From the sequence record KT367887.1: 48,493 nt of DNA, one strand, 5' to 3'. Source of the stretch: Klebsiella phage vB_Kp3. The position numbers were made by a program, and so were the translations under genes. This document shows, one piece after another, positions 7,636-43,811 of the stretch. The notes below the pieces were generated by a model, which saw only the letters and a program-made list of their open reading frames with translations, was not told where the DNA came from and did no database searches. The stretch's first letter is position 1. Each line of letters starts with the position of its first letter.

Positions 7636-7647
7636 AATTTCCTCCTG

Positions 7648-9270: not shown

Positions 9271-9280
9271 GTTGTTTTCC

Positions 9281-10942: not shown

Positions 10943-10967
10943 CGTTTCCTCCTGCTTTGGTTCGGAC

Positions 10968-11290: not shown

Positions 11291-11312
11291 AATTTCAGGT
11301 GTTAGGTGGTAT
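11291..11312 (+). promoter_or_regulatory. 22-bp element AATTTCAGGTGTTAGGTGGTAT (copy A); 21 nt downstream lies -10 TATAAT (11334-11339), then an imperfect hairpin with T-run (11369-11417) before terS
   Basis: Identical 22-mer found inverted at 28411-28432. Confidence 0.55.
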
Positions 11313-11471
11313 CCCTATTATATATAAAACCCATATAATTACAGAAACACGTACACCCTTACGCACATGGGGGAAGAAAAAAGCGCTACGCAGTGGCTGC
11401 GCGTTTTTATTCTCCCCACCATGCCGTATAGGGGTAAACTGGGGCAGAGCCACTTGAAAGAGGAAACCAAC

Positions 11472-29236: not shown

Positions 29237-29820
29237 GCACCATCCGACTGTACGGCGAAATGGGGGCGCGCTTCGGGCGCGTCCATCACCTCGCGGTCGA
29301 CTCCTGCGCCGAAGCAATCAGCGCCCTTTCCGCCATCATCCCCGGATTCGATCAATACATGCGAGACAGCCAGTCTCGCGGCCTGACCTTCGCCCCTTTC
29401 ATCGGAAAGCGGAACATCGGCTTCAATGAGATGTCGCAGCCAATCCCTGACGGCGAAGAATTCCGCATTGCCCCGATCATCATCGGCAACAAGAAGGGCG
29501 GCCTGTTCCAGACCATCCTGGGCGCTGCGATGATTGTCGCGGGCGTCGTGGCGTCGTTCATCCCCGGCGGGCAGGCTGTCTCCCCTTACCTCGTTGCTGC
29601 TGGTATCTCCACGGCTGCTGGCGGGGTTATGCAGATGCTTTCCCCGCAGGCGACAGGCATGAAGATCCGGGAGAATGACGCCAACGCGCCGTCATACGCC
29701 TTCGGCCAGCCGGTTAACACGACAGCACAAGGTAACATCGTTGGCGTTTTGTATGGCGAGCGTGAGATCGGGGGTGCTATCATCAGCGCCGGAATTATCG
29801 CTAACGAGGTACGTTCTTAA
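29221..29820 (+). CDS. Tail tip assembly protein I
   Basis: N-terminus resembles lambda gpI (LYGEMGARFGRVHHLAVDSCAEAISALSAIIPGF). Confidence 0.7.
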   Translation: MGNQLSTIRLYGEMGARFGRVHHLAVDSCAEAISALSAIIPGFDQYMRDSQSRGLTFAPFIGKRNIGFNEMSQPIPDGEEFRIAPIIIGNKKGGLFQTILGAAMIVAGVVASFIPGGQAVSPYLVAAGISTAAGGVMQMLSPQATGMKIRENDANAPSYAFGQPVNTTAQGNIVGVLYGEREIGGAIISAGIIANEVRS

Positions 29821-32800
29821 TGGAAATCAAAGGATACAAGGGCGGGAGTAGCAACGTGCATACCCCCGTTGAAGATCCAGACTCCCTGATCAGCAACGCA
29901 ACGGTAAGGATGCTCCTGGCGTTGTCAGAGGGTGAAACCGTGCCGATTAGCGCGGAAGACCTGCCCAAGCGCGTTTACATGGACGGGACGCCCGTTCAGA
30001 ACGATGATGGGTCGGTAAACATTCCGGGCGTAACACTGGAATATCGCAACGGCACCCCGCAGCAGGAGCCGATCAACGGCTTCCCGGCGGTGGAAAGTGA
30101 AACACGAATCAATGTGGAGCTGAAAAAGTCTTCTGCATGGGTGCGTAACATCACCAACACCGAGATCGACGCCGTCCGCATCCGAATGAATTTCCGGCTG
30201 GTCATCCAGCAGAAGGACGGGGATCGCGTAGGCGGACGCATTGAGTACCGGATTGAATACCGCAAAGTCGGCGACAGCACCTACACCGTGGCCTTCAATG
30301 GTGCTGTCGACGGCAAGCAGAAAGACAACTATGAACGCGATCACCGCATCGACCTGCCGAAGAGCAGCACTGGCTGGCAAATCCGCGTGACCCGCCTAAC
30401 TGACGACAGCACGTCTGATACCACCGTGCTCAACTCCGGGATCGTGGCTGTCACCGAGATCGTCGACGCCCGCGTTCGTTACCCGTGGACGTCCCTTCTG
30501 TTCGTCAGCTTCGACGCCAAATCGTTCCAGAACATCCCGAAAATCAGCATCAAGATGGGCGGCCGTCTGGTACTGGTTCCGTCCAACTATGACCCTGTTA
30601 ACCACACCTACAGCGGGTCGTGGAACGGGACATTTAAACAGGCGTGGACGGATAACCCGGCGTGGATCGTCTACGACATCATTCTGCACAAGCGCTTCGG
30701 TATTGGCCGCCGTATCCCGTCCTCATTCCTGAACAAATGGACGATGTACAGCATCGCACAGCGCTGCGATGAGCTGGTGACGAACGCCGACGGCACGCAG
30801 AATCGCCGTTACACCTGTAACGTGTATATCCAGAAACGCGCGCATGCGTGGAGCGTCATTCGTGACCTGGCGTCGATCTTTAACGGAATGGTCAGCTACA
30901 GCAACATGCAGCTTCAATTTGCGCAGGATGCACCGGCAGAAGTCCGCCATGTTGTGACAAACGACGACGTCGTGAACGGAACGTTCGAGTATTCCTACGG
31001 CAGCATGGCTAACCGCCGCGGGATCGCGATGGTCACTTTTGACGACCCGAAGGCGCACTATAAGACGCAGACCACTGTGGCGCAGATCAAAGACCTCGTG
31101 GAGCGTTATGGCGTTGAGCCGCTGGAAGTGTCCGGCATCGGCTGCACGGACGAATACGAAGCGCAACGTCGTGGCCTGTGGGCGCTGCTGTCGAACACCA
31201 ACGACATGCAGATCAGCTACCGCGTCGGCCTGAACGGCATCAAGTACCTGATCGGCGACGTCGTCGGCATCGCTAACCGCTACGTGCAGGGCGGTCAGTT
31301 CGGCGGGCGTGTTGCTGGCGTATCCGGCACCACCATCACCACCGACCGCATGATCTCCGACCACGTGGCAATCGGCGACAGAGTGATCGTTCGTCAAGCT
31401 GGATCGGATGGAACCTACAACCGCGTGATCAATGCAATCGCGGCTGACCGGATGTCCTTCACCGTCGACGGCACTAACCTTGATATTCAGAGCGGTGAAG
31501 TGTTCCTGCTGGATACTAAGGTGCTGGCACCTGAACTAATCCGCATCACCAAGATCACCTACAACGAGCAGGACAATAATTTCACCGTTACCGGTCTGCA
31601 ATACAGCCACTCGAAGTATTTGCAGGTTGACACCGGCGCGCGAATTGAAGACCGCCCGACATCGCTGATCCCGACCGGGCAGGTACAGGCACCCGCTAAC
31701 GTGGTGGCCGAAGGCTACAGTATCGTTAACCAGGGGATTCGCTCAGCTAACGTAAACTGTTCATGGTTCACCGTAGATCAGGCCGTCAGCTACGACATTC
31801 AGGTGCGCCGAACCTCTCAGTCAAACGGCCAGTGGTCACAGGGGTGGACTAACCTTGCCAGCCAGTCAAGCACGTCCGTTGACCTGACAAACGTTCTGAC
31901 CGGCACCTATCAGTTCCGCGTTCGTTCCGTATCCCGTGACGGCGGTTCGTCTCAGTGGGTCGAGTCGAATCAGGTGTTCGTTGACGGCAAGCGTGGCAGC
32001 ATCCCGGCAGTAGCTGGCCTGAACGGCGTAGGCATCGTTAACGGCATTACCTGGCGTTGGGTGACTGGCACGGATGATCTGATCGATATGAAGTCGACAG
32101 AGCTACAGTTCCAGCGCATTGACGGCAATGGTGCTCCGGTTGGTGATTGGATCGATCTCAGCGTCGTGACCTACCCTACCGGGACGTTCACACAGTCCGG
32201 CCTGAAATTTGCCGAACGCGTGCAGGTGCGCGCCCGCTTTGTGTCGTCATATAGCGATGCTGGCGAGTGGAGCGCCCCGGTCATGGCGATGACGTCCGAC
32301 AACATGGACGACTATTACCAGAACATCGACGACGCGATCAAAGGCTCCGACACCTACGGCGAACTTACCAGCGGCATCAAAGACGTAAGCGACAGCGCAC
32401 AGGCAGCGAAAGACGCCGCGCAGGCCGCGCAGGTTACTGCTGACGGAGCAGTGACAACCAACCAGCAGCAGCAGCAGCAGCTGAACAACCAGCTGGCCGA
32501 GATCCAGAAGAACGCGCAGGACATCACCAACACCGCTAACGCGGGGGCGGCAAACGCCAGTGCAATCGCTCAGGAGATCCTTGATCGCAAGGCTGGCGAC
32601 ATCGCGAACGCCAACAAGGCAGCTCAGGACGTGGCCGACGCTATCGCGAAGGCTGAGACGGATGACGCACAGGTGGCAGCTGACGCAGCGGCCAACCTGC
32701 TGACAGCGAAGAACGAAGTAGAAGCGCAGATCAGCACCACCAATACCACAATGCAGGACGGCTTCGACAGCCTGGCGCAGCAGATGGCATCCATTTCCGC

Positions 32801-35800
32801 TGGCACCGGCGAGCAGTTCGACAGCCTCGCTATCTGGTACTTCGACAACGGCCCGGAAGGGTGGGCTTCTGACGACGCCAACACCAATCTGCTCCCCGTA
32901 GACCAAGATGGCTGGATTTACCCTGCTGGCGCAGCATCCACCATGCGCTCACCTAACCCGCTGGCAATCGACGCGCGCAGCTATAAGTACATGCGCCTGC
33001 GCATGAAGCGAGTCGGGAACCCGTCATGGTCTGGCAGGCTGTATTGGATCGGCGTGGATGAGACTGGCTGGACAAGTGGCCGCTCAATTGCCATTCCGGC
33101 ACCTGACTTTGACCCGGCCACCGGGATCACTGTCCTGTCGATCCCCGATCTTCTGTGGGCGACATCCGGCACCGTGCGCCGCCTGCGCTTTGACTTCTCA
33201 AACAATCAGGACGCCAATAACTACTACGCCGTCGACTGGATGGCAGTAGGACGACCGACCCCGGGCGCGTCACAGGCACAGGTTCAGGATCTTCGCACCG
33301 CCATGACCGCGGCGGACTCAGCCGAAGCCGCAGCGCGCAACACACTGGCCGTTCAGCTCCGCGGGAACTATGAGGGAACCGACCCTTCCAAGCTGGTGAC
33401 TGGCATCATCTTCAACGAGCGCCAGACCCGCGTCACCGCAGAGCAGGCGATCGCCAGCGACGTCAACACCCTGCGCACTGACTACAACGCGAACAAGGCC
33501 GCCGTGACCCAGCGTCTCGACACGCTGACCAGCGAGAACCAATCGCAGGCGCAAGCGCTTACCCAGCTTCAAAGCGGTCTGACTGACGCTAACGGAAAGA
33601 TCGGCGCTAACGCTACAGCCATCAGCCAGATCAAAACAGACGTGACGGCGCTGGATGGTCGAGTATCGGCAAATAGCGGTCTGATCACTAACCTGCGCAG
33701 TGACCTGAATAACATGCGCGTCGGCGGCACCAACCTGATCCCTAACTCTGGCACGCTAGCAGGCGTCAGCGGCGTTGTGCAGGGTCAGACGTACAAAGGC
33801 AATGCTATCCGTCGCATCGCGATTGCAGCAGCCTCAGCCGGCTCCTACGACCAATTTGAGTATGAGCTTGCGGCTCCGATCGACGGAACCGAAGTAGTCG
33901 TCAGCTTCTACGCGAAAGCGAACAACGCCGACAGCAAGCAAATTTTCGTCTACCTGTACAACCCGAACGCCACGCTTACGGCTTTAAGTAGTCAGGGTAA
34001 AACTGGTAGCTGGGCTACTGGTGGCGATGGTTCGATGACAATCGACCTTACGGAAGACTGGGCGCGCTACTGGGTGAAATACACTCGTAAAAGCGGACAA
34101 ACTGGAAGCACCCGGGTCATCTTAGGCCGACTGCTGAAAGGGTCTAAGGACAAAGAGGTTTACATCAGCTCGCCTAAATTCGAATACGGCACCATGCCTA
34201 CCGAATGGAGCGAAGCACCGGCTGACAATGCCAGCGCAAGCGCGTTGCAGGCACTGACCACGCGTGTCACTGCGGCGGAAGGCACCATCAGCACCAACAG
34301 CCAGGCGATCACCCAGCTCAAAGGCGACGTGAGCACCTTACAGGGTCAGGTGGCTACCAAGGCCGAAGCGAGCGCATTGCAGCAGCTGGCGACTACTGTC
34401 ACCCAGCAGGGGAACACCATCTCTTCGCAGGGTCAGGCCATCACCGACTTGCAGAACACCGCGCAGAACGGTAAAGCGAACTACTGGCTGACCAAGATCT
34501 TCGATATCAAAGGGGGCGGTAGCGGGTACATTCCTAAGCTGTCCGACCTGTCTGGCGTTCCTCCGCTGGCCGTGTCCGAGATGGCTGACGCTGCAAAGCT
34601 GGACTTCCTGACTTACGGCGACTACAAAATCGCGTATGCGAAGGCGCTGGTGTATGTCGCGGCTGACAAGACAATCGCTATCACCCCCGGCTCCCGCATC
34701 GTGGACGACACCGGCCGACTGTATGTCAATGGGGTGGAAACGGCATCCTTTGGCGCCAGCACTGGCAACTACAGCCTGTCGCTAAAAAAAGGCTGGAACA
34801 CGCTTGAGTTCGTGGTTGCGCAGATCACCGGTCAGTTCTATATCAACTTTGGACTCAAGCTGTCCGATAACGTCGATCAGATGTTCAGTGGTGCCGGTCA
34901 GCTGGCCGCTGCATCCGCCTCGCAGGTGCTCTCCTCTCAGGTTGAGCAGACCTCCGGGAAGGTTGACGCGAACAGTGCCGCGATCGTCACTCTGAACAAC
35001 TCGGTGAGGGACATCAACACCGCGCTGAACAACAAGGCTGACGCGAGCGCGTTGCAGTCGCTGACTACCCGTGTCACCACCGCAGAAGGGAAGATCACGG
35101 CTCAGGGCAATGCAATTACCCAGCTCACCAGCGACCTGTCGACAGCGAACGGGAAGATCTCCGCTAACTCAACGGCGATCAATAACCTGACGACCCGGGT
35201 CAGCGCAGCCGAAGGGAAGATTGACTCACAGGCTGAGTCCATCACCTCGATCAACTCATCTATCAAGGGCGTACTGACCCAAGCGGCCAACCTTATCCCT
35301 AACCCGACGGTAGACCCGGCCTATTCGCAAATGGGCATGACCGTTGTTTCCACAACGTCAGAAGGCGTTCCGGCTGGATGCCCTTACCCGTGGGCGATTA
35401 AATGCCAGTACCGCGATCACGTCCCGGGTATGAACAACATCCCTTGTCGCGAAGGTCAGGTGTTTGAGTTCTCTGTACTGGCCGCATGCGGCACCGGCTC
35501 CGCACCGTTCCAGCACTACATCGGTACGTCGACTCTGGTTTCTGGCAGCATCGGGTCGCCACAAGCGAACGGAGGCCAAATCTCAGCGGCTACCGGCGCG
35601 CAGTGGACGCGCACTACATGGCGCTGGACAGTAAACGCGGAGCATGGGGCGAAGGGTTACTTCCGTCCATTCCTGCAAATCGCGCAGGCAGGCCCGGGCT
35701 ACGGGACAGTATGGTATGCAACTGACTGGAGCGTTCGCGACGTCACCGCAGCGGCGAAGGCAGAAGGCAAGGCAGACGCCAACGCCACGGCGATCAGTCA

Positions 35801-38800
35801 GCTGACAACCCGCGTTACTTCTGCGGAAGGGTCGATCACGTCTCAGGGTCAGGCCATTACCAAACTGACCAGCGATCTGAGTACGCTGACCGGCGTCGTG
35901 AACAATAAGGCTGACGCTTCGGCGCTGAATGCGCTCACTACCCGCGTATCGACTGCCGAAGGCAAGATCGATTCACAGGGTCAGTCGATCACCCAGCTGA
36001 GCAATAGCCTGTCCGCAACTGACGCCTCAATCGACGCGCAGGGCAAGATCCCCGGGAACCTGCTGGCTAACTCATCGTTTGAGCGCGGCCCGGTTAACTT
36101 CACCGGCTGGAGCAGCCTTGCCACCATCATCACGGCAACACAGCCGCATTCTGGCACCAAAATTGTCAAGATGGCGGCAGGCGGAAGTGCTGGAATCAGT
36201 CAGGCCGTTGAAATCACGCAGGGCCGCCGGTATCGCTTCGGCGTGTTTGCCAAACAGGACGCCGGGACTACCATCAACGATCCGGGTAACACGAAATTCC
36301 GTATCGCTGAGGAATCAGGCAGTCTTCTTGTCGGCACGAATTACGGCCCGTTCACTGGCACATGGCAGCACGTCTTCATGGACTGGACGGCTACGAAGAC
36401 CACCACCGCGCTGTTCCAGCTGACTACATGGCTGAGCGCTGGCGCGATGTACTTCGACGATGTCTACGTTGTCGACATCACCAACGACACCAAGATTCAG
36501 GCGAACGCTGACGCGATCACCTCGCTGAACACGAAAGTGACCCAGCAGGGTAACGACATCACGTCGCAGGGTAGCGCGATCACCCAGCTGACCAACCGCG
36601 TGCGCACTGAGCAGTACAGCAACAGCAACCCGTGGGTAGATGGCTCGTTCGAGTCGTATGACAACCAGCAAGCCATCGGTGGATCTAATGGCCTGGTCAC
36701 TACTGACTTCTCATTCAGTGGTCAGAAGTCGCTTATGTGTCGCCGCGCCAACGGTGAAACCGGCAACTCTGACAAGACTTTAGGGTATGAAACAGCCATT
36801 CGCGAGTCTGCGGTTTACCGCTTCGAATGCTGGGCGATGATGCCGGAAGATGAGACGCCGCCGGAAGGGTGGAACTGTGTTGTGGGCTTGATGGTTCGCA
36901 CCGCAGCCAACCAGAACGCATGGCCTAGCGCATTCGTCATCACAGAGTCAGGGCTTGCTGCTGGTGGCGGTCGTGGTAAGTGGGTCAAGTTCTCCGGCAA
37001 AGTAGGCGTAGGCGGCGGACAGAAGACACGAGGCCGTCTGTGGATCTCCACTCGCGGCACATCCGGCGGCCCTGGATATAGCATCTATATCGACGATCTG
37101 GTGATCACCGACGTTACCGACGCTCATGCAGCACAGACCACCGCAGACGCTAACTCAAGCGCGATCAACAGCCTGACCAGCCGTGTGAGCACCGCAGAAG
37201 GGCAGATCACATCTCAGGCAGACGCGATCACCAAGCTGAACGGTGACGTTAGCACCATCAACGGCACGCTGAGCCAGAAGGCTGACGCCAGCGCAGTCAC
37301 CGCACTGCAAACGCGCGTGACCACCGCAGAAGGCCAAATCGCGAGCAATGGCACGGCCATCACCAACCTGAATAACGGCCTGGAAGCACAGCGACGCACC
37401 GGTGAAAACCTCGTGCAGAACTATGACTTCATGCAAGGCGACACCGCATTCAGCGTGCAGCGGGATAGTTTCAGCACAGTAACGTTCGGCGACTACGGAG
37501 ATGGCAAGCCAGGCGTGCGCATGGTGAAAGTCAACGCCACATCGCCCGGCCTGTTCGCGAACAACAAAAAGCCGGTGCCGCAGAACGGCCAGCGCCGCTA
37601 TCGCTATGTTGTGCGCGCGAAGTCCGTAAGCGGTGGGAATAACCTTCTTATGCGTCGCTGGAATTTCAACGGCTCCGTAGAAGGCTCTTATACAGACAGG
37701 AACAACGCGCTTACAACTGACTGGCAGACCCTGACGTGGGAAACCGATCTCACCCCGGCAAGCGGATTTGACGGTTCAGCGTTCGGCCTGTATTGCCACC
37801 CGTCTAACGCGGAAGTGTGGATCGACTCGTTCAAGGTGTACGACATCACCGAAGAGCTGACGATCAAGGCTAACAGCGCGGCGATCAACAGCCTGACCAC
37901 CACCGTCACCCAGCAGGGCCAGGACATCACCGCGCAGTCGAACGCGCTCACGCAGCTGAAATCCAGCCTGACTAATGACGCGGTAGCGCTGGCAGCGAAC
38001 CCGGATAACATGCTGACGAACACCGGCTTCGAGCGTGGAACGGACAACTGGGTAGGATGGAGTTCACGCGCCGACGTCTACGCAGCACAAGAACCGAAGT
38101 CAGGCGCAATGATCCTGCGTGGTAAATCCGGCGGTAACGCGTCAATCGGTCAGAATGTTCTGAGCGTGAAAGCTGGCCGCACCTACCGGTTCGGCGGATA
38201 TGTGAAACGCACAGCTGATATGGCGATCGGCCCAAACACCGTAGGGAACAACAAATTCCGCCTTGGTAACGCGACCACCGGCGCTGGCCCTATTTCTGAG
38301 CTGAACTTCTCAGAAGCGAATATCGGCACTAGCTGGACGCTGATCACTAAGGACTTTGTCCCGACGTCTGATATTGACGTTGCCTATTCGATCAACTGGA
38401 ACCTTGCTACCGGTGAGATCTACTTTGATGACGTGTTCTTTATCGACGTCACCGACGAGATCAATAACGCGGCCAATGCTACAGCCATCAGCAACTTGAC
38501 CACCCGAGTTACTACGGCAGAGGGCAAAATCACGTCGCAGGGAACGGCGATCACTCAGCTGACCGCAGACCTCAGCACCGCGAACGGGAAGATCACGGCG
38601 AACTCCAACGCGATCACCAGCCTGCAATCGACTGTCACCCAGCAGGGCAATACGCTGACCTCTCAGGGCCAGGCGATTACCAAGCTGAATAGCGACCTGT
38701 CTGACCTGTCTGGCGTGGTGGACACGAAGGCCAGCGCTTCGGCACTGAATTCCCTGACTACCCGCGTCACCAATGCGGAAGGCAAGATCACCGCGAACAG

Positions 38801-39896
38801 CAACGCGCTGACCAGCCTGACTTCTCGCGTCGGCAATGCAGAGTCAGCGATCGATGGCCTGAACGAGACGACGGCGGCTAACGGTCTGGCGATGGCGAAC
38901 GGCTTCCAGCAACTGCGTGCGCAGATCGGCGACAACCAGGCAGCCATCACGCAGACGAGCCAGGCAATGGTGGATCTTGAGTCTTCAACGGCGCAGCAGA
39001 TCGGCACAATCAAGGCGTCAGTGGATGGTATGAGTTCCACCGTTCAGCAGACTTCAACGGCTGTTGCGGATATCAACGGCAAGCTGTCGGCGCAGTGGGG
39101 CGTCAAAGTTCAGACTGACACCGGAGGCGGAAACCCGCGCATTGCTGGTATTCAGCTGGGCATCGACGCGAGTGGTTCTTCGCAGTTCCTGGTTCAGGCT
39201 GACACCTTCGCGGTGTACGCTGGAGGCAGTAACAAGACGTTCCCGTTCGTTGTGCAGAACGGCGTGGCGTACATGCAGGAAGCGCTGATCCGCGATGGCT
39301 CGATCACCAACGCGAAGATCGGAAACGAAATCAAGTCGAACAACTTTGTCGATGGCTCTCAGGGCTGGCGCATCGGTAAAGATGGCAGCTCGCAGTTCAA
39401 TAACGTGATCGTTCGCGGCAGGGTTGAGGCGAATAGCGGTATTTTCAAGGGAACGGTGCAAGCTGAATCTTTTATCGGCGATATTGCTACTTCTGCATCG
39501 TTCAACGGATTTACTGTCAAGGGCGGTGAAGGTTCTGGCACTATGAACGCATGGTATCAGAACCGCGGGTATCCGATGACCATCACGCTGAACTGCACTG
39601 TACGATGCAATTCATACTCTGGCGGGGTAGGCGACCAAAGCCGTGACTTCTATGTGGTTCTGACATTCAACATTAACGGAGTGCAGAGCACGAGGCGCGT
39701 CGTTGTTGATATGCGGGATAAAGCACACGGCCTTGTGGATGTTCCGCAGTCGTTCACTGTTAACATTCCAGCAAGTAACGACCGAATCGGCATCTCGCTG
39801 ACTGGTGCAAGTTATGGGCCGCAGCAGAGTGAAGTCACAGTAAGCAATATTGTTGTGACGGCATTCCGAAGCAATAACGGTTCTTTTGGACAATAA
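29820..39896 (+). CDS. Giant central tail fibre / host specificity protein J (3358 aa). Lambda-J-like N-terminal 850 aa and C-terminal 300 aa, interrupted by about 2000 aa of coiled-coil repeats plus six CBM4/9-like domains
   Basis: N-terminal VPSNYDPVNHTYSGSWNGTFKQAWTDNPAWIVYDIILHKRFG and C-terminal SQFLVQADTFAVYAGG...AESFIGDIA align to lambda J; internal repeats and N(L/M)L(A/T)N(S/T)(S/G)FE(R)G...YFDDV...DIT modules. Confidence 0.9.
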   Translation: MEIKGYKGGSSNVHTPVEDPDSLISNATVRMLLALSEGETVPISAEDLPKRVYMDGTPVQNDDGSVNIPGVTLEYRNGTPQQEPINGFPAVESETRINVELKKSSAWVRNITNTEIDAVRIRMNFRLVIQQKDGDRVGGRIEYRIEYRKVGDSTYTVAFNGAVDGKQKDNYERDHRIDLPKSSTGWQIRVTRLTDDSTSDTTVLNSGIVAVTEIVDARVRYPWTSLLFVSFDAKSFQNIPKISIKMGGRLVLVPSNYDPVNHTYSGSWNGTFKQAWTDNPAWIVYDIILHKRFGIGRRIPSSFLNKWTMYSIAQRCDELVTNADGTQNRRYTCNVYIQKRAHAWSVIRDLASIFNGMVSYSNMQLQFAQDAPAEVRHVVTNDDVVNGTFEYSYGSMANRRGIAMVTFDDPKAHYKTQTTVAQIKDLVERYGVEPLEVSGIGCTDEYEAQRRGLWALLSNTNDMQISYRVGLNGIKYLIGDVVGIANRYVQGGQFGGRVAGVSGTTITTDRMISDHVAIGDRVIVRQAGSDGTYNRVINAIAADRMSFTVDGTNLDIQSGEVFLLDTKVLAPELIRITKITYNEQDNNFTVTGLQYSHSKYLQVDTGARIEDRPTSLIPTGQVQAPANVVAEGYSIVNQGIRSANVNCSWFTVDQAVSYDIQVRRTSQSNGQWSQGWTNLASQSSTSVDLTNVLTGTYQFRVRSVSRDGGSSQWVESNQVFVDGKRGSIPAVAGLNGVGIVNGITWRWVTGTDDLIDMKSTELQFQRIDGNGAPVGDWIDLSVVTYPTGTFTQSGLKFAERVQVRARFVSSYSDAGEWSAPVMAMTSDNMDDYYQNIDDAIKGSDTYGELTSGIKDVSDSAQAAKDAAQAAQVTADGAVTTNQQQQQQLNNQLAEIQKNAQDITNTANAGAANASAIAQEILDRKAGDIANANKAAQDVADAIAKAETDDAQVAADAAANLLTAKNEVEAQISTTNTTMQDGFDSLAQQMASISAGTGEQFDSLAIWYFDNGPEGWASDDANTNLLPVDQDGWIYPAGAASTMRSPNPLAIDARSYKYMRLRMKRVGNPSWSGRLYWIGVDETGWTSGRSIAIPAPDFDPATGITVLSIPDLLWATSGTVRRLRFDFSNNQDANNYYAVDWMAVGRPTPGASQAQVQDLRTAMTAADSAEAAARNTLAVQLRGNYEGTDPSKLVTGIIFNERQTRVTAEQAIASDVNTLRTDYNANKAAVTQRLDTLTSENQSQAQALTQLQSGLTDANGKIGANATAISQIKTDVTALDGRVSANSGLITNLRSDLNNMRVGGTNLIPNSGTLAGVSGVVQGQTYKGNAIRRIAIAAASAGSYDQFEYELAAPIDGTEVVVSFYAKANNADSKQIFVYLYNPNATLTALSSQGKTGSWATGGDGSMTIDLTEDWARYWVKYTRKSGQTGSTRVILGRLLKGSKDKEVYISSPKFEYGTMPTEWSEAPADNASASALQALTTRVTAAEGTISTNSQAITQLKGDVSTLQGQVATKAEASALQQLATTVTQQGNTISSQGQAITDLQNTAQNGKANYWLTKIFDIKGGGSGYIPKLSDLSGVPPLAVSEMADAAKLDFLTYGDYKIAYAKALVYVAADKTIAITPGSRIVDDTGRLYVNGVETASFGASTGNYSLSLKKGWNTLEFVVAQITGQFYINFGLKLSDNVDQMFSGAGQLAAASASQVLSSQVEQTSGKVDANSAAIVTLNNSVRDINTALNNKADASALQSLTTRVTTAEGKITAQGNAITQLTSDLSTANGKISANSTAINNLTTRVSAAEGKIDSQAESITSINSSIKGVLTQAANLIPNPTVDPAYSQMGMTVVSTTSEGVPAGCPYPWAIKCQYRDHVPGMNNIPCREGQVFEFSVLAACGTGSAPFQHYIGTSTLVSGSIGSPQANGGQISAATGAQWTRTTWRWTVNAEHGAKGYFRPFLQIAQAGPGYGTVWYATDWSVRDVTAAAKAEGKADANATAISQLTTRVTSAEGSITSQGQAITKLTSDLSTLTGVVNNKADASALNALTTRVSTAEGKIDSQGQSITQLSNSLSATDASIDAQGKIPGNLLANSSFERGPVNFTGWSSLATIITATQPHSGTKIVKMAAGGSAGISQAVEITQGRRYRFGVFAKQDAGTTINDPGNTKFRIAEESGSLLVGTNYGPFTGTWQHVFMDWTATKTTTALFQLTTWLSAGAMYFDDVYVVDITNDTKIQANADAITSLNTKVTQQGNDITSQGSAITQLTNRVRTEQYSNSNPWVDGSFESYDNQQAIGGSNGLVTTDFSFSGQKSLMCRRANGETGNSDKTLGYETAIRESAVYRFECWAMMPEDETPPEGWNCVVGLMVRTAANQNAWPSAFVITESGLAAGGGRGKWVKFSGKVGVGGGQKTRGRLWISTRGTSGGPGYSIYIDDLVITDVTDAHAAQTTADANSSAINSLTSRVSTAEGQITSQADAITKLNGDVSTINGTLSQKADASAVTALQTRVTTAEGQIASNGTAITNLNNGLEAQRRTGENLVQNYDFMQGDTAFSVQRDSFSTVTFGDYGDGKPGVRMVKVNATSPGLFANNKKPVPQNGQRRYRYVVRAKSVSGGNNLLMRRWNFNGSVEGSYTDRNNALTTDWQTLTWETDLTPASGFDGSAFGLYCHPSNAEVWIDSFKVYDITEELTIKANSAAINSLTTTVTQQGQDITAQSNALTQLKSSLTNDAVALAANPDNMLTNTGFERGTDNWVGWSSRADVYAAQEPKSGAMILRGKSGGNASIGQNVLSVKAGRTYRFGGYVKRTADMAIGPNTVGNNKFRLGNATTGAGPISELNFSEANIGTSWTLITKDFVPTSDIDVAYSINWNLATGEIYFDDVFFIDVTDEINNAANATAISNLTTRVTTAEGKITSQGTAITQLTADLSTANGKITANSNAITSLQSTVTQQGNTLTSQGQAITKLNSDLSDLSGVVDTKASASALNSLTTRVTNAEGKITANSNALTSLTSRVGNAESAIDGLNETTAANGLAMANGFQQLRAQIGDNQAAITQTSQAMVDLESSTAQQIGTIKASVDGMSSTVQQTSTAVADINGKLSAQWGVKVQTDTGGGNPRIAGIQLGIDASGSSQFLVQADTFAVYAGGSNKTFPFVVQNGVAYMQEALIRDGSITNAKIGNEIKSNNFVDGSQGWRIGKDGSSQFNNVIVRGRVEANSGIFKGTVQAESFIGDIATSASFNGFTVKGGEGSGTMNAWYQNRGYPMTITLNCTVRCNSYSGGVGDQSRDFYVVLTFNINGVQSTRRVVVDMRDKAHGLVDVPQSFTVNIPASNDRIGISLTGASYGPQQSEVTVSNIVVTAFRSNNGSFGQ
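34230..38880 (+). repeat. Family of in-frame tandem/interspersed repeats (unit about 111 bp / 37 aa, consensus ..ASALQ(A)LTTRV(T)(T)AEGKI(T)SQGQAIT(Q)L(T)SDLST..) alternating with roughly 450-bp CBM-like modules
   Basis: At least 14 recognisable copies, e.g. starting near 34230, 34340, 35040, 35150, 35780, 35890, 36490, 37150, 37260, 37870, 38480, 38590, 38700, 38770. Confidence 0.7.
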
Positions 39897-39923
39897 GGAG
39901 CGGCCCTTCGGGGCCGATATTAA

Positions 39924-41192
39924 ATGGCAAATATTAGCGACCAACTCGCGGCTGATATTCACAACGCATTCAGCAAATACTACACAGACCTCGCCAATCA
40001 GGATCAGATCTTCTTTGGCGTTGGTGACGTGCAGATCACCAAGCAGGACGGAACCACCGCAACCGTGCGTTCATGGAACAAGGTGATCGGCTCAGTGGAT
40101 ACCGCAGCACAACGCGGAGCTGCAAACACCTTCACGGCCCTGCAAACGTTCAGCGCCGGGATCAATGTCTCTGCCGGAAACATCAACGTGATGAACGACA
40201 ACAGCATGGTGATCCTCGGGAAAAACAGCGATCTTGCACTGCTGAAAAAATATGGTCAGGGCGGCACCATTGCCGTCGGCAGCGGCACGCCATTCAAGAT
40301 CCAGCGCACGAATACAGCAACTGTCTCACCGGCTTCTACGGTCGAGGATATTTTGACCATCGGCACGGATAAGAAAACCACCGTTGCCGGAGCGCTTGCC
40401 ACTGGCGGCGACATTGACAATGCTGCCAGCGGTAAGATGTATTCCCAGGCGATGGAACTGTCATTTAGCACGCCATACATCGACTTTCATTTTAACTACA
40501 GCACCGACGACTTCACCGGTCGGATTATAGCCACCGCCGCCGATCAAATTAGTGTGCAAGGTAGTCATTTGCGAGTTGACAGGGATCTTCGTGTTTTTGG
40601 CATGGCAGATATTAAAGGGTGGACGCAATGCGGAGTCGATCTATCGTCCAATAGAACAGACTTCGGTTCTCCTGCCAATGGTGCGTTGGTTTCCGGCGGG
40701 CGTATTCGATCCAGAATGCTTGGGCGCGGCGGTAACGTTGACCCATCCGGGGCGTGGGGCGGCTTCTATGTTGAAGAGTACGTGGGAACCGAGCACAGGA
40801 TTATCATGTATATGGACGGCTTCGGGAGAACAGACGCATGGTCATTCCGCTCAGGGGGGACAATCTCCACACCCAAAGGCGACGTTCTCACTACCGGTTC
40901 AGACGTGCGACTGAAAACAGACTTCACCCAAGCGCCTGAGAACGCCTCAGAGCGCATTGAACGCTTGGGGGTATGTGAGTACCGGTTGAAGGGAGAAACG
41001 CGCGTGAGGCGTGGTTTTATCGCACAGCAGGCGGAGACTGTAGACGAGGTCTACACCTATCAGGACGTCGAGCAGGAGATCGACGGCGAGAGGTTCCGGG
41101 TGATGAACGTGGACTATGTGGCAATCATCGCTGACCTGGTGGCGTCGGTGCAGGAGCTTCGGAAGGAATTGAGAGAGCTGAAAGGGGAATAA
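39924..41192 (+). CDS. Side tail fibre protein with C-terminal intramolecular chaperone (peptidase S74) domain
   Basis: C-terminal GSDVRLKTDFT...ERIERLGVCEYRLKGE...GFIAQQ motif characteristic of S74 autoproteolytic chaperone. Confidence 0.75.
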   Translation: MANISDQLAADIHNAFSKYYTDLANQDQIFFGVGDVQITKQDGTTATVRSWNKVIGSVDTAAQRGAANTFTALQTFSAGINVSAGNINVMNDNSMVILGKNSDLALLKKYGQGGTIAVGSGTPFKIQRTNTATVSPASTVEDILTIGTDKKTTVAGALATGGDIDNAASGKMYSQAMELSFSTPYIDFHFNYSTDDFTGRIIATAADQISVQGSHLRVDRDLRVFGMADIKGWTQCGVDLSSNRTDFGSPANGALVSGGRIRSRMLGRGGNVDPSGAWGGFYVEEYVGTEHRIIMYMDGFGRTDAWSFRSGGTISTPKGDVLTTGSDVRLKTDFTQAPENASERIERLGVCEYRLKGETRVRRGFIAQQAETVDEVYTYQDVEQEIDGERFRVMNVDYVAIIADLVASVQELRKELRELKGE

Positions 41193-41521: not shown

Positions 41522-42004
41522 TCAAAACGGGATGTCGTCATCAAAGTCCATCGGCGGCTCGCTGGACTGCTGCTGTGGTTTTGACTGCTGGCGCGCTGGG
41601 CCGGAATGTGTCCGCGGCTGTCCCTGCGGCTGTCCCTGCTGTCCGCCTTCGCTCTTACCGCCTAACATTTGCATAACGGCGTTAGGCCCGTTCAGAACCA
41701 CTTCTGTCGTCCATTTCTCGACTCCGTTGCTGTCAGTCCATTTTCGTGTTTGCAGCTTTCCTTCGACGTAGATCTGAGAACCCTTTTTCACGTACTCGCC
41801 GACGATCTCAGCCAGCTTCCCGAAGACGACGACACGGTGCCATTCCGTTTGCTCCTTTACTTCGCCGGTCTGCTTGTCGCGCCATGATTCTGACGTCGCG
41901 ATCGTGAGGTTAGCCACCGCGCCGCCTGACGGCATGTATCGAATTTCTGGATCCTGACCGATGCGACCCACGAGGATCACCTTGTTAACTCCACGGCTTG
42001 CCAT
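41522..42004 (-). CDS. ssb: Single-stranded DNA-binding protein
   Basis: OB-fold N-terminus, Gly/Gln-rich linker, acidic tail DFDDDIPF. Confidence 0.9.
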
Positions 42005-42016
42005 TTATAACGCTCC

Positions 42017-42712
42017 TTAAAAATCTTCTTCGACGTCTGATTGCTGCGGCGGTACATCTTGCGGCTGAACGTCATCAGGTGCAACCTGGACGGTAGCCTT
42101 ACCGCGTTTAGCATTGGCTGGCTTGCCGGGGTTGAACGGTCTGGCCTCCGCGTTTTTCAGCTCGACGATCTTGCTGGCGCGGGCATCTTCGACGATGCGC
42201 AGTGATGCCTTGTCGCTGCGGAACAGCTCGCACGCGGCGCGGTAGATTGCATCCACCTCATCCTTGTCCTTCGCGGCTTCAATGGAGCGGCGGCAGTCGG
42301 CTGCGCTACGCACTGATTTGTTGCCGTCGTCGTCGTCCATGGTGAGGCCGAAGATCGAAACGCGGGCATAGCGGCGGGCGTAGGTCAGCGTTGAGCCGAA
42401 GCCTTGGGCGTCGTTCTTCGCCAGCGGGATCTGGCAGATATCGGACAGCCATTCGCCTGTGGCAACGTGGATGATGCGCGTCTCCATCAGCATCACGTTC
42501 GGAGCCTGTCCGGCCTCGTGCGTCGGAGACTGGATCATGATCAAACCGGCATCTTCCATTGCCGGGCCGATGGCGGCCGCAACGTCTCCGAGGGTCGCAT
42601 AGTGGTTTTTCAGGTGCTGGTTCTGCTTGGACTTCTTCGGCGATACGCACATATCCTGCGCGTGGGCAAACTGCTTAACGATGGTGCTGCATGGCTGAGA
42701 GAATTTCATCAT
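42017..42712 (-). CDS. ERF-family single-strand annealing protein
   Basis: GFGSTLTYARRYA motif typical of ERF. Confidence 0.75.
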   Translation of the reverse strand: MMKFSQPCSTIVKQFAHAQDMCVSPKKSKQNQHLKNHYATLGDVAAAIGPAMEDAGLIMIQSPTHEAGQAPNVMLMETRIIHVATGEWLSDICQIPLAKNDAQGFGSTLTYARRYARVSIFGLTMDDDDGNKSVRSAADCRRSIEAAKDKDEVDAIYRAACELFRSDKASLRIVEDARASKIVELKNAEARPFNPGKPANAKRGKATVQVAPDDVQPQDVPPQQSDVEEDF

Positions 42713-42767
42713 TTGGTCACTCCTTATATTGAGGGGGTAATATGTCAGTATATTACCCCGGAATCAA

Positions 42768-43811
42768 TTATTTTTTGGTTTTCACATCTTCCCACAAGTG
42801 GCGGAAGGCGCTTTCCAGGTAGTACGGAGGATCGAGGTCAATCACGCTTCCGCCGCCGTAGGTCGGCCACGTGTCATTGTCCCGGCACCATTTAAATGTG
42901 GCGATGGCTTCACGCAGCTGCGCATATCCAATCATCAGGGTTTTGTTTGACAAGGCGAAAGGAGCGACGACGAACGGGCTGCTCTTCTCCTGCGCCAGCA
43001 ACATCGTCCTTCTCGGTTTCTGGCCGAAAGCCGCCTTAAACCCCTCGCGCTGCAACGCCATTTTCAGCGGATACCCGAGATCGAAGCACTTACGCATGAA
43101 TCTTTCAGGGTTGGCCGTGTCCGTGGTCTTATAGTCCACCATGTCGGCGAACTTGCTGATCCAGTCGAGGCGCACCTTGCAGCGCAAACCCTGATAGCTG
43201 AAAAAGATCGAGACTTCCGACATTCCGTCGACGAAATATTCCTTAAATGATTCGTTATTAAACAGAACGGCGCGCATCTCCTGAATGATGTCATAATCCT
43301 GTCCGCGAATGCCTTCACGTTCACCGCGCTCTTCATTGGCCTTTTTCACGATGTCGTGCCAGAAAACAACGTCAGTTATCCCAAGAGCTGCGGCGGTGTT
43401 GGTGACTGTCTCAATTAATTCCGGCTCTTTCATTTTCGAATAACCGGCAACCCCGTGTTCTTTCAGAAATGCCTTCGCGGCCTCAAGCGAGGTAATAAAG
43501 TTCGGCTGCGGAATAATATCGCCGTTATCGTCACGCTTAATAAAGTCCTCTTTCTCAGGCATGCGGAAATATTCACGGGCAAATAATTCCGGTTCGAGGT
43601 GGTTAGCGTGGGCAGCAGTTCCGAATACCAGTGCGCGGGATTGCTTTTTCTTTTCCTCTGCGAACTTCCAGTTAGCCGGGCATGTTGAGAACAGCTCCCA
43701 CAAGCCGGAGCCGTTCATGTGGTCTGTCTCAGCGTGATAGTCTTCGTTCGACAGATCGTTATTAGTAAAGAACAGCACTTCATCATCTTTTAGCGATTTA
43801 ATATCTGACAT
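42768..43811 (-). CDS. PD-(D/E)XK (RecB/YqaJ-like) exonuclease, recombination partner of ERF
   Basis: D...DMVDYKT motif; position next to annealase. Confidence 0.55.
   Translation of the reverse strand: MSDIKSLKDDEVLFFTNNDLSNEDYHAETDHMNGSGLWELFSTCPANWKFAEEKKKQSRALVFGTAAHANHLEPELFAREYFRMPEKEDFIKRDDNGDIIPQPNFITSLEAAKAFLKEHGVAGYSKMKEPELIETVTNTAAALGITDVVFWHDIVKKANEERGEREGIRGQDYDIIQEMRAVLFNNESFKEYFVDGMSEVSIFFSYQGLRCKVRLDWISKFADMVDYKTTDTANPERFMRKCFDLGYPLKMALQREGFKAAFGQKPRRTMLLAQEKSSPFVVAPFALSNKTLMIGYAQLREAIATFKWCRDNDTWPTYGGGSVIDLDPPYYLESAFRHLWEDVKTKK

What the first reader, a model, noticed from the sequence alone, without database searches (positions are those of the whole stretch)
34230..38880. 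Near-identical DNA repeats within J could drive module gain and loss
At least 14 copies of a roughly 111-bp coding repeat are spread over 4.6 kb. They share long stretches of DNA identity (e.g. gcgatcaacagcctgacc, cagcagggc.acgacatcac, ctgac(c/t)acccg(c/t)gt). The CBM-like blocks between them are more divergent. Direct repeats of this kind are substrates for RecA- or ERF-mediated recombination. The phage encodes its own ERF and exonuclease. This could expand or contract the fibre and shuffle binding modules to vary host range.
Basis: seen in the sequence. Interest (0 to 1): 0.55.

Follow-up and report, generated by a model that had tools for sequence, protein, structure and literature searches.

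The report
Coiled-coil repeats shuffle tail-fibre modules
The giant tail-tip protein of this Klebsiella phage is a coiled-coil stalk of 42-residue repeats strung with sugar-binding-type modules; the repeats are not near-identical in DNA, but related phages and prophages have repeatedly lost, duplicated or moved modules by in-register recombination at short conserved stretches inside them.

Summary
The repeat family is real, but "near-identical" is wrong. Gene J (29820-39896, 3358 aa) holds 16 copies of a 42-44-codon unit, not 111 bp. Fourteen copies lie in 34224-38849. Copies are 41-66% identical in DNA, and the longest exact direct repeat is 19 nt. Synonymous sites are almost randomised: 51% identical codons against 41.7% expected.

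The unit has heptad periodicity and matches the trimeric coiled-coil shaft of P22 needle gp26. It separates seven 148-176-aa beta modules. Two of these (D, G) pass Pfam CBM_4_9, and three more (C, E, F) are linked to them by profile comparison.

The proposed consequence is borne out in relatives. Complete J proteins of related phage isolates range from 2328 to 3391 aa with 4-7 modules. Database relatives that keep the J N-terminus have 3-7.

I mapped six junctions at DNA level, and all are in frame and in register inside repeats. Two deletions map onto this window's own sites, r10|r13 and r13|r15. A prophage carries a perfect 603-nt tandem duplication of one module, joined in a 17-nt motif. 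Crossovers use 8-17-nt islands, and one shows no microhomology. This points to short-homology recombination rather than RecA on long repeats.

ERF, exonuclease and SSB genes are present. Which enzyme acts, how often, and any host-range effect remain untested. This is a new example of a known kind of tail-fibre modular evolution.

The parts
29820..39896 (+). Gene J: central tail fibre / tip attachment protein, 3358 aa. An ordinary J N-terminus (about aa 1-860) and C-terminus (about aa 3010-3358) are separated by a roughly 2150-aa insertion of coiled coil and globular modules.
   Evidence: ORF. Pfam FNIII-A_GpJ at aa 91-217 and Phage_Tail_Tip at aa 3074-3207. PDB sequence hits to J-like gp24 (23gd_D), F2-pyocin fibre (25vf_A) and lambda J (8iyk_J) over aa 2-844.
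33543..33725 (+). Repeats r1 (partial, 33543-33599) and r2 (33600-33725), upstream of module A. These are weaker members of the family.
   Evidence: hmmsearch domains at aa 1242-1260 and 1262-1299.
33717..34226 (+). Module A (aa 1300-1469), predicted all-beta. Relatives carry non-homologous modules (G-like or M) at this position.
   Evidence: AF2 pLDDT 70-83, all strands. Foldseek hits to CBM22/CBM4/CBM16 and phage Tuc2009 BppA somewhere in the r2-A-r3-r4-B-r5-r7 model (aa 1262-1819); which module matched was not established. Cassette variation.
34224..34481 (+). Repeats r3 (34224-34349) and r4 (34356-34481).
34461..34904 (+). Module B (aa 1548-1695), beta-rich. It has no sequence link to the other modules.
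   Evidence: low-confidence model.
34899..35282 (+). Repeats r5 (weak, 34899-35024), r6 (35031-35156) and r7 (35157-35282). r6 carries CTGACTACCCGTGT at 35061. The 5' half of r6 is fused to the 3' half of r11 in phage NewHawk.
35277..35774 (+). Module C (aa 1820-1985), a distant member of the CBM_4_9-like set. Absent in NewHawk and in several prophage versions.
   Evidence: hhalign C-G 82%, C-D 74%. Architectures.
35772..36029 (+). Repeats r8 (35772-35897) and r9 (35904-36029).
36024..36494 (+). Module D (aa 2069-2225), CBM_4_9.
   Evidence: Pfam PF02018, 33.5 bits against a cut-off of 25.9.
36495..36620 (+). Repeat r10. The island ACCCAGCAGGGTAACGACATCAC at 36540-36562 is the left site of the r10|r13 deletion seen in contig L022.
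36618..37145 (+). Module E (aa 2267-2442), CBM_4_9-like by profile comparison.
   Evidence: hhalign D-E 94.9%, E-G 96.2%.
37143..37400 (+). Repeats r11 (37143-37268) and r12 (37275-37400). r11 shares the window's longest exact repeat with r13: 19 nt at 37161 and 37881.
37398..37862 (+). Module F (aa 2527-2681), CBM_4_9-like by profile comparison.
   Evidence: hhalign D-F 95.4%, F-G 96.5%.
37863..37988 (+). Repeat r13. It holds the right site of the r10|r13 deletion (37908-37930) and the left site of the r13|r15 deletion (GTCACCCAGCAGGGC, 37905-37919).
37983..38465 (+). Module G (aa 2722-2882), CBM_4_9. It is tandemly duplicated in prophage L021. A G-like module sits at position 1 in other phages.
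   Evidence: Pfam 36.6 bits. PDB CBM16 3oea_A, E 6e-5..
38466..38849 (+). Repeats r14 (38466-38591), r15 (38592-38717) and r16 (38724-38849). r15 holds the right site of the r13|r15 deletion (38634-38648). r16 carries CTGACTACCCGCGT at 38754.
   Evidence: This stretch matches P22-type needle gp26 (4lin_A).
38847..39893 (+). C-terminal tip region H (aa 3010-3358), with the Phage_Tail_Tip domain. The last roughly 150 aa are swapped among relatives (types H, J, O, V, P) and are shared with Webervirus phages.
41522..43811 (-). Phage recombination genes: SSB (41522-42004), ERF-family annealing protein (42017-42712) and PDDEXK exonuclease (42768-43811). These are candidate catalysts; they have not been shown to act on J.
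   Evidence: Pfam PF00436, PF04404, PF12684. Annotations in relatives.

Best explanation
J is a lambda-type central tail fibre that carries a roughly 2150-aa insertion. [quoted passage not shown] It is built from 42-44-residue (six-heptad) repeats, interrupted seven times by 148-176-aa beta-sandwich modules that are mostly CBM_4_9-like.

The repeats are old duplications kept at the protein level, so their DNA has drifted to about 54% identity. Strongly constrained codons leave short identical islands of 8-19 nt, for example at LTTRVT, TQQG and AI(N/T)SL.

Over evolutionary time, non-allelic recombination between two different repeats, aligned in the same register, has removed, duplicated or moved whole repeat-plus-module units. 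Because the join falls in the same heptad phase, the product is an in-frame, shorter or longer stalk. Ordinary allelic recombination between co-infecting relatives adds cassette swaps whose boundaries also fall in the repeats.

Shown: the repeat anatomy, the coiled-coil and CBM affinities, the length variants and the junction positions.

Inferred: that the islands guide the exchange through short-homology annealing or template switching, possibly by the phage ERF/exonuclease/SSB rather than RecA. Also inferred: that changing the module set alters what the fibre binds.
For: ANATOMY
- 16 repeat units alternate with 7 modules.
- Hydrophobic residues fall at heptad positions a (91%) and d (55%).
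- The repeat profile hits the three-stranded coiled-coil shaft of P22 needle gp26 (2poh_A residues 91-135, E 3e-8). The shaft structure is described in PMC3741392.
- AF2 models the repeats as long helices and module A as all-beta.
- Modules D and G pass Pfam CBM_4_9. C, E and F link to them by hhalign at 74-96%.

LENGTH VARIANTS
- 18 complete J genes of isolates span 2328-3391 aa with 4-7 modules. The two other fetched loci, HSE3 and VLCpiS8c, hold only partial or fragmented J.
- Among the 120 best of 1958 database homologues, 2-10 modules and 6-27 repeats are seen, though many entries are fragments.

JUNCTIONS (all in frame and in register inside a repeat)
- NewHawk: -2112 nt, r6|r11.
- Carter against Haden: -753 nt. 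The same junction appears in three independent contigs.
- L022: -1368 nt, r10|r13.
- L023: -729 nt, r13|r15, in the longest island those two repeats share (15 nt).
- L024: -1977 nt.
- L021: exact 603-nt tandem duplication with a 17-nt crossover.

OTHER NON-ALLELIC TRANSFER
- The 5' half of r2 in Haden, Chambers and K34PH164 is 98-100% identical to r15.
- Carter has a 53-nt exact match between r10 and r13.
- K34PH164 has 30+26+33 exact nt between sites 4968 nt apart.

ERF, exonuclease and SSB are encoded nearby.
Against: - Homology at the crossovers is only 0-17 nt. The Carter junction has none, so selection for in-register products among random deletions could explain part of the pattern.
- A crude count of BLAST segment ends shows no enrichment in repeats: 32% of ends against 28% of sequence.
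- For NewHawk the sampled 'parents' are only 80-92% identical, so its crossover is not pinned.
- Three junctions come from metagenome assemblies.
- No event has been observed in this phage itself.
- No experiment links module content to host range. Phages with five different architectures were isolated on one strain.
- The trimeric state and sugar binding are inferred, not shown.
Confidence: 0.78

Rival explanations
1. The repeats matter only structurally. All module variation comes from ordinary allelic homologous recombination between co-infecting phages or prophages that already carry different cassettes. Crossovers would then fall in orthologous flanking sequence, not between different repeats of one gene.
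For: Many differences are same-position replacements: A, G-like or M at position 1; F-G, K-L or N-L at positions 6-7; and tip types H, J, O, V, P. Identity to different relatives changes along the gene. For example, L022 is 98% identical to Haden up to J nt 6751 and is window-like after that. The tip swap points lie outside the repeats.
Against: This cannot produce hybrid repeats made of halves from two different positions (r6|r11, r10|r13, r13|r15). It cannot produce a perfect tandem duplication, or an r15-type sequence at the r2 position.
Confidence: 0.1
2. Deletions and duplications arise by homology-independent illegitimate recombination anywhere in J. Only in-frame products that keep the heptad phase survive, so junctions appear to sit in register in repeats without the DNA islands having any guiding role.
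For: The Carter/Haden junction has 0-3 nt of shared sequence, and the two repeats involved are 44% identical. Synonymous sites show almost no extra conservation.
Against: Four of six mapped crossovers sit in an exact island of 8-17 nt. In two cases (L021, L023) this is the longest island the two repeats share. In L022 and L024 a longer shared island lies nearby (11 and 15 nt). A fifth crossover, NewHawk, is not pinned. Random breakage would seldom do this.
Confidence: 0.15
3. The stronger form of the first reader's idea: J behaves as a high-frequency variation locus. RecA or ERF recombination between its repeats would generate length variants in every lysate, as a host-range bet-hedging device.
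For: Some relatives do carry long near-identical repeats: 53 nt in Carter, and about 108 nt at roughly 97% in K34PH164. A more distant prophage family has 3-6 near-identical tandem 44-aa units, with copy number varying between strains. The phage encodes ERF, exonuclease and SSB.
Against: In this window the longest exact repeat is 19 nt, no more than a codon-shuffle null gives. Nine isolates share the full seven-module arrangement A-G, and another four carry a G-like module in place of A, at 81-98% DNA identity to the window. This indicates stability. The Q6 microsatellite in J is invariant.
Confidence: 0.08
4. The length variants are assembly artefacts caused by repeats.
For: Most records are short-read assemblies, and three junction loci are metagenomic contigs.
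Against: Repeats within one gene share at most 19-53 exact nt, which is shorter than typical assembly k-mers. The same junctions recur in independent samples: the Carter type in P0008, P0009 and P0020. All variants keep an open 2300-3400-codon frame. L021 lies on a 5.44-Mb contig.
Confidence: 0.03

Closest known systems
Lambda gpJ / TipJ central tail fibre, including F-type pyocin fibres and the 'J-like tail tip protein gp24' of PDB 23gd
   Same: The N-terminal roughly 845 aa align with 23gd_D (E 2e-222), 25vf_A and 8iyk_J. FNIII-A_GpJ and Phage_Tail_Tip domains are present. The gene follows the tail assembly genes K and I.
   Different: Solved J proteins are 1130-1200 aa. This one carries an extra roughly 2150 aa of coiled-coil repeats and seven globular modules between the hub part and the tip.
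Recombination at conserved motifs in T-even tail-fibre adhesin genes. This covers gp37 'His boxes' and the gp38 glycine-rich motifs that separate hypervariable segments (Trojet et al. 2011, PMC3157838; Tetart et al. 1998, from my own knowledge).
   Same: Short conserved sequence elements alternate with variable binding segments, and the architecture allows specificity determinants to be interchanged.
   Different: In the T-even case the elements are short structural motifs within one small domain, and the exchange is mainly between phages. Here the conserved elements are six-heptad coiled-coil repeats. Whole 150-aa domains are lost, duplicated or relocated within one gene by unequal, in-register events.
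P22-family tail needle gp26 coiled-coil shaft
   Same: The repeat profile matches gp26 residues 91-139 (ITANTKAITALNVRVTTAEGEIAS...) with E 3e-8. According to PMC3741392, needles in that family also differ in the number of heptads (11-16).
   Different: gp26 is a short plug protein of podophages with an uninterrupted shaft. It has no inserted CBM modules.
S8-group Klebsiella siphophages (VLCpiS8a-c) described by Beamud et al. 2023 (PMC9989827)
   Same: This is the same phage lineage (VLCpiS8c and VLCpiS8a are hits). The paper reports a first receptor-binding protein of 2309 or 3201 aa with 2-3 CBMs. It reports a second one with an endosialidase-chaperone domain, broad host range and little depolymerase activity.
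   Different: The passages of that paper I read (term search) do not mention the 42-aa repeat, the 7-module count or repeat-mediated rearrangements. It suggests the long protein might be a polyprotein.
CBM-decorated adhesion devices of siphophages of Gram-positive bacteria (e.g. Tuc2009 BppA), and the mycobacteriophage Douge central fibre gp20
   Same: The model of r2-A-r3-r4-B-r5-r7 (aa 1262-1819) gives Foldseek hits to 8zdp_v (E 5e-5), 5e7t_B and CBM22/4/16 domains.
   Different: The matches are weak and come from a model with mean pLDDT 49. Those proteins carry one or a few CBMs, not a string of seven on a coiled coil.

Membership tests
Lambda-type tip attachment protein J (TipJ) | Homology of the N-terminal hub/FNIII region to solved J proteins | tested here: met
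   PF24801, E 2.5e-35. 8iyk_J E 4.9e-89 over aa 9-708, and 23gd_D E 2e-222.
Lambda-type tip attachment protein J (TipJ) | Position directly after the tail assembly genes (K- and I-like) and before a side-fibre gene | tested here: met
   The 199-aa ORF at 29221-29820 abuts J. Relatives annotate tail assembly protein and tail tip assembly protein I upstream. The downstream ORF 39924-41192 has Peptidase_S74.
Lambda-type tip attachment protein J (TipJ) | C-terminal tail-tip fibre domain | tested here: met
   PF09327 at aa 3074-3207, E 5.6e-37.
CBM_4_9 carbohydrate-binding modules | Score above the Pfam gathering threshold | tested here: met
   Module D scores 33.5 bits and module G 36.6 bits against a cut-off of 25.9. 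Modules A, B, C, E and F give no Pfam hit.
CBM_4_9 carbohydrate-binding modules | Profile-level homology of the remaining modules to D/G | tested here: inconclusive
   E and F are linked at 95-96% hhalign probability and C at 74-82%. A and B are unlinked. At least one of A and B resembles CBM folds in a low-confidence model.
CBM_4_9 carbohydrate-binding modules | Actual carbohydrate binding | not testable with these tools
   Needs glycan arrays or binding assays with the isolated modules.
Trimeric alpha-helical coiled coil (P22 gp26-type shaft) | Heptad a/d periodicity | tested here: met
   Hydrophobic fraction is 0.91 at position a, 0.55 at d and at most 0.36 elsewhere. 42 aa equals 6 heptads.
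Trimeric alpha-helical coiled coil (P22 gp26-type shaft) | Sequence similarity to a solved coiled-coil shaft | tested here: met
   The repeat profile against PDB gives 2poh_A and 3c9i_A at E 3e-8, and 4lin_A at E 2e-16.
Trimeric alpha-helical coiled coil (P22 gp26-type shaft) | Three-stranded assembly of the repeats in the virion | not testable with these tools
   Only monomer prediction was available. It gave helices with low pLDDT.
Tail-fibre genes that evolve by recombination at conserved internal motifs | Conserved elements alternate with variable binding segments | tested here: met
Tail-fibre genes that evolve by recombination at conserved internal motifs | Natural recombinants whose junctions lie in the conserved elements | tested here: met
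   Six junctions mapped at DNA level, plus further hybrid repeats at protein level.
Tail-fibre genes that evolve by recombination at conserved internal motifs | Recombinants have altered host specificity | not tested
   Only isolation hosts are known. Different architectures share one host.
High-frequency repeat-driven variation locus (contingency-type) | Long near-identical direct or tandem repeats in the gene | tested here: not met
   Longest exact repeat 19 nt, identity 41-66%, no TRF array. The feature is met in some relatives.
Diversity-generating retroelement or invertase shufflon acting on a tail fibre | Reverse transcriptase with template/variable repeat pair, or a site-specific invertase next to the fibre gene | tested here: not met
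   No such gene is annotated in the 48.5-kb genome of the closest relative, which is 97.6% identical over J. The neighbours of J are a side fibre, SSB, ERF and an exonuclease. This rests on annotation only, not an exhaustive search.

The most novel reading that the evidence does not exclude
The coiled-coil repeats may do more than act as passive spacers and accidental recombination joints. All 13 strong repeats carry, at a fixed register, the SxSxxMxxLxS-type pattern; 7 of the 13 carry it a second time, 21 residues on. A 2026 preprint on the F7 pyocin (PMC12874032) links this pattern to a coiled-coil-to-beta-prism fold switch in central tail fibres. In the modular segment of J there are 32 matches against 10.8 +/- 3.1 in shuffles.

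If these repeats switch fold on receptor binding, the roughly 2000-aa stalk would be a segmented, contractile 'spring'. It would reel the virion through the Klebsiella capsule, and its stroke length would be tuned by the module and repeat gain and loss documented here. A related strong reading is that phage ERF/exonuclease generates J length variants at measurable frequency in every burst.
Probability: 0.12. Interest if true: 0.8.

Novelty: new member of a known kind. Interest (0 to 1): 0.45.

Why it matters
These S8-type Klebsiella siphophages are reported to be broad-range and largely capsule-independent (PMC9989827). Their giant J protein is the obvious candidate determinant of that behaviour.

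Nature has repeatedly cut and rejoined this protein, in register, inside the 42-residue repeats. That gives a ready rule for engineering. Modules can probably be deleted, duplicated or swapped at these joints without breaking the fibre, and specific sites in this genome are named here.

The finding also gives a clean, junction-level natural example of how a multi-domain receptor-binding protein grows and shrinks by short-homology unequal recombination. The same architecture is present in 523 Klebsiella and 144 Acinetobacter plasmid records and in most of the 1958 database homologues, which are mostly annotated as Klebsiella. The process therefore probably shapes host recognition across a large pool of temperate and virulent phages.

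Tried and rejected
- Tandem Repeats Finder on 31000-41000 found only trivial 3-9-nt arrays. The repeats are too diverged and interspersed.
- I tested whether BLAST segment ends between 17 full-length J genes are enriched in repeats. They are not (32% of ends against 28% of sequence). Many ends simply reflect patchy divergence inside modules, so the test cannot separate allelic from non-allelic events and I dropped it (one search timed out).
- An exact search of IMG/VR for the r10|r13 hybrid junction found nothing. IMG/VR holds only three relatives: two have full seven-module J proteins and one is cut short by a stop after 887 aa.
- The directed-evolution paper that mentions phage EKq1 (PMC12347782) concerns Jiaodavirus fibres, not this J. 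The Texas Klebsiella phage preprint did not cover these phages.
- AlphaFold2 on aa 1262-1819 with an 8-row alignment gave mean pLDDT 49. Only module A and the helical nature of the repeats are usable, and module B stays uncertain. I did not run a second prediction.
- A DGR or invertase mechanism was considered and rejected. No RT, invertase or integrase is annotated in the nearest relative.
- The (CAG)6 run in J (32463-32481) was considered as a slippage site. It is Q6 in every relative that has it.
Full report
WHAT THE WINDOW IS

The 48.5-kb window is a Klebsiella siphophage genome of the unclassified group that includes vB_KpnS-MUC-5, EKq1, HSE3 and the VLCpiS8 phages. Gene J is 97.6% identical to that of MUC-5, and 56 phage records match it.

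The finding lies inside one ORF, 29820-39896 (+), which encodes 3358 aa. Its first roughly 845 residues align with solved J-type tail-tip proteins: 23gd_D at E 2e-222, the F2-pyocin fibre, and lambda J 8iyk_J at E 5e-89. It has the FNIII-A_GpJ domain near the start and the Phage_Tail_Tip domain at aa 3074-3207. Solved J proteins are 1130-1200 aa long. This one therefore carries about 2150 extra residues between hub and tip.

CHECKING THE OBSERVATION

A profile built from the repeat finds 16 units in J. Thirteen are strong, and 14 lie at 34224-38849, which matches the stated interval.

The period is 126 or 132 nt (42 or 44 codons) rather than 111 nt. The quoted strings are present, each in two copies. 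The core motif CTGACYACCCGYGT occurs 11 times in J at up to 2 mismatches, against 1.1 expected by chance in the whole window.

The copies are far from near-identical:
- Pairwise DNA identity is 41-66% (mean 54%) and protein identity is 24-79%.
- The longest exact direct repeat in the gene is 19 nt (37161/37881). That is within what shuffling synonymous codons gives (mean 17.2, maximum 27).
- The number of exact matches of >=14 nt is raised, at 15 against 5.4 +/- 2.2.
- At aligned positions with the same amino acid, 51.0% of codon pairs are identical against 41.7% expected from the gene's codon usage.

That criterion is nearly met, but not quite.

WHAT THE PARTS ARE

The repeat has clean heptad periodicity. 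Hydrophobic residues occupy position a in 91% of cases and position d in 55%, and 42 residues equal six heptads. Its profile matches residues 91-139 of the P22 tail needle gp26 at E 3e-8. That stretch lies in the three-stranded coiled-coil shaft of gp26 (PMC3741392). AlphaFold2 models the repeats as long helices.

The repeats come in groups of one to three, separating seven globular blocks that I call A-G, each 148-176 aa:
- D and G pass Pfam's threshold for CBM_4_9.
- E and F are linked to D/G at 95-96% hhalign probability, and C at 74-82%.
- A and B are unlinked by sequence.
- Module A is modelled as an all-beta domain with pLDDT 70-83. The model containing A and B gives Foldseek hits to CBM22, CBM4 and CBM16, to Tuc2009 BppA and to the mycobacteriophage Douge central fibre. 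These scores are weak.

"CBM-like blocks, more divergent than the repeats" is therefore a fair description.

TESTING THE INTERPRETATION WITH RELATIVES

I fetched J from 20 related phage records and annotated each with the repeat profile and a module clustering. Eighteen of these J genes are complete; HSE3 is fragmented and VLCpiS8c is cut at the record end.

Complete J proteins range from 2328 to 3391 aa. The window's arrangement is N-rr-A-rr-B-rrr-C-rr-D-r-E-rr-F-r-G-rrr-H. Eight other isolates share the full module order A-G, and four more carry a G-like module in place of A. Other arrangements are:
- NewHawk lacks C, D and E.
- Wooten has K and L in place of F and G.
- Haden has M at position 1, and N and L at positions 6-7.
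- Carter has six modules.
- JVSB2 and Diencephalon have four unrelated ones.

A database search with the modular part returned 1958 homologues, most of them annotated as Klebsiella. The 120 best carry 2-10 modules and 6-27 repeats, though many are fragments. Close relatives that keep the J N-terminus have 3 to 7 modules.

WHERE THE JUNCTIONS LIE

I compared each half of every repeat with the window's repeats (for DNA, for protein). Short forms carry hybrid repeats whose two halves come from different positions.

Six events were mapped at DNA level:
1. NewHawk lacks 2112 nt. The junction repeat is r6-like on the left (89%) and r11-like on the right (84%).
2. Carter equals a Haden-like gene (97-99% identical flanks) minus 753 nt. 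The same junction occurs in three independent contigs.
3. Contig L022 equals a window-like gene minus 1368 nt, with 9 mismatches in 271 nt to the composite. The crossover lies in ACCCAGCAGGG..GACATCAC, which corresponds to window 36540-36562 and 37908-37930.
4. Contig L023 lacks 729 nt. Its crossover is in GTCACCCAGCAGGGC, corresponding to window 37905 and 38634. This is the longest island that r13 and r15 share.
5. Contig L024 lacks 1977 nt relative to phiKp_14, joined at CAGCAGGG.
6. A K. pneumoniae chromosomal prophage (L021) carries an exact 603-nt tandem duplication of half-repeat + module G + half-repeat. The crossover lies within the 17 nt CTGACCACCCGTGTCAC. A sister protein has the single-copy form.

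All six are in frame and in the same repeat register.

There are also signs of non-allelic sequence transfer. The 5' half of r2 in Haden, Chambers and K34PH164 is 98-100% identical to r15. Carter has 53 exact nt shared by r10 and r13. K34PH164 has 30+26+33 exact nt shared by sites 4968 nt apart.

MOST LIKELY MECHANISM

The repeats are ancient, protein-constrained coiled-coil segments. Their most constrained codons leave identical islands of 8-19 nt. Rare unequal exchanges between two repeats, aligned in register, delete, duplicate or relocate repeat-plus-module units while keeping the reading frame and heptad phase.

From my own knowledge, RecA-dependent recombination in E. coli falls off sharply below about 20-30 bp of perfect identity and with sequence divergence. 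Annealing-type or template-switch mechanisms that need only short homology therefore fit better. The phage does encode SSB, an ERF-family annealing protein and a PDDEXK exonuclease at 41522-43811. Their involvement is inference.

One junction (Carter) has no microhomology. Homology-independent breakage followed by selection for in-register products must therefore contribute. Same-position cassette swaps and swaps of the tip domain show that ordinary allelic recombination between related phages is also at work.

WHAT IS NOT SHOWN

- No rearrangement has been seen in this phage itself, and the seven-module form is shared by many isolates. The locus is not obviously unstable.
- A crude test for enrichment of alignment ends in repeats was negative and uninformative.
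- The host-range effect is untested. Mingus, Wooten, Haden, Chambers and Carter have five different architectures, and all were isolated on K. pneumoniae ATCC BAA-2342. The four-module NewHawk shares its host with full-length relatives.
- The C-terminal tip, not the internal modules, may carry the primary receptor specificity. It is swapped among relatives, and its last roughly 460 nt are 81-85% identical to Webervirus fibre genes.

COMPARISON WITH WHAT IS KNOWN

The protein is a member of the J/TipJ family by every feature I could test. The idea that conserved internal motifs in tail-fibre genes act as exchange points for specificity segments is established for T-even gp37/gp38 (PMC3157838; Tetart et al. 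1998, from my own knowledge). Variation in heptad number is known for P22-type needles (PMC3741392).

Beamud et al. 2023 (PMC9989827) already reported that S8 phages have a 2309- or 3201-aa first receptor-binding protein with 2-3 CBMs, broad host range and little depolymerase activity. The passages of that paper I read do not mention the repeat or the rearrangements.

This is therefore a new, well-documented member of a known kind of system. What is added here is the repeat anatomy, the seven-module count, and junction-level evidence for unequal in-register recombination, including sites in this genome.

A LEAD NOT PURSUED

All 13 strong repeats carry, at a fixed register, a pattern resembling the SxSxxMxxLxS motif; 7 of the 13 carry it a second time. 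A 2026 preprint associates this motif with a coiled-coil to beta-prism fold switch in central tail fibres (PMC12874032). The pattern is loose and partly implied by any heptad repeat rich in small residues, so I treat this only as a hypothesis.

VERDICT

I rate interest as moderate.

Noticed in passing
window 39438-39896 (last ~150 codons of J): The 3' end of J is 81-85% identical in DNA to the central tail fibre genes of about 19 Webervirus-type (Drexlerviridae) Klebsiella phages, such as phage 1513, which share nothing else with J. Among close relatives the tip exists in at least five types (H, J, O, V, P), with swap points around J nt 9599-9669 (window 39418-39488). This suggests exchange of the receptor-binding tip between genera.
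   Followed up: partly
L016 (K34PH164) J nt 3763-3870 vs 8731-8838; also Haden and Chambers; L007 (Carter) J nt 6676-6728 vs 7981-8033: Some close relatives carry long, nearly exact direct repeats inside J. K34PH164 has 30+26+33 exact nt at sites 4968 nt apart, and Carter has 53 exact nt. This looks like recent copying of one repeat onto another position. Unlike anything in the window, these would be good substrates for further deletion.
   Followed up: partly
Proteins P0023, P0025, P0028, P0042 (Klebsiella prophage / plasmid-like contigs): A more distant branch of the family has runs of 3 to 6 almost identical tandem 44-aa repeats (KKADATALQSLQNTVEQHGKDLTTQSGALTSLQNSLNTTNSN). Copy number differs between strains. 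This is true tandem copy-number variation.
   Followed up: partly
Plasmid records, e.g. CP067582.1, NZ_CP104928.1, NZ_CP141853.1: The repeat-plus-CBM segment (aa 2682-3010) has tblastn matches at about 42-44% identity in 682 plasmid records. Of these, 523 are Klebsiella, mostly about 54-kb or 110-kb non-mobilizable replicons that look like phage-plasmids, and 144 are Acinetobacter.
   Followed up: no
window 34224-38849, register positions 3 and 24 of the 42-aa repeat: The repeats match a loose version of the SxSxxMxxLxS pattern that a 2026 preprint ties to coiled-coil-to-beta-prism fold switching in central tail fibres. There are 32 matches in aa 1241-3075 against 10.8 +/- 3.1 in shuffles.
   Followed up: partly
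window 39924-41192 (+): The 422-aa ORF directly after J has a C-terminal Peptidase_S74 (endosialidase chaperone) domain. It is probably a self-cleaving side fibre. Its length also varies among relatives (1218-1287 nt among the S8-type isolates).
   Followed up: no
window 32463-32481: A (CAG)6 run encodes Q6 at aa 882-887 of J. It is invariant in every relative that has this region, so it does not behave as a slippage hotspot.
   Followed up: yes
window 32790-33545 (aa ~990-1240 of J): A further globular region (WYFDNGPEGW...) lies between the first coiled-coil stretch and repeat r1. It has no Pfam match and no profile link to modules A-G. Its function is unknown.
   Followed up: partly
L008 (HSE3, MT075871.1) 2094-11885: In phage HSE3 the J region is annotated as four overlapping 'tail fiber' CDSs. 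Its longest open frame is only 1475 aa. This is most likely frameshift sequencing errors or a disrupted gene.
   Followed up: no
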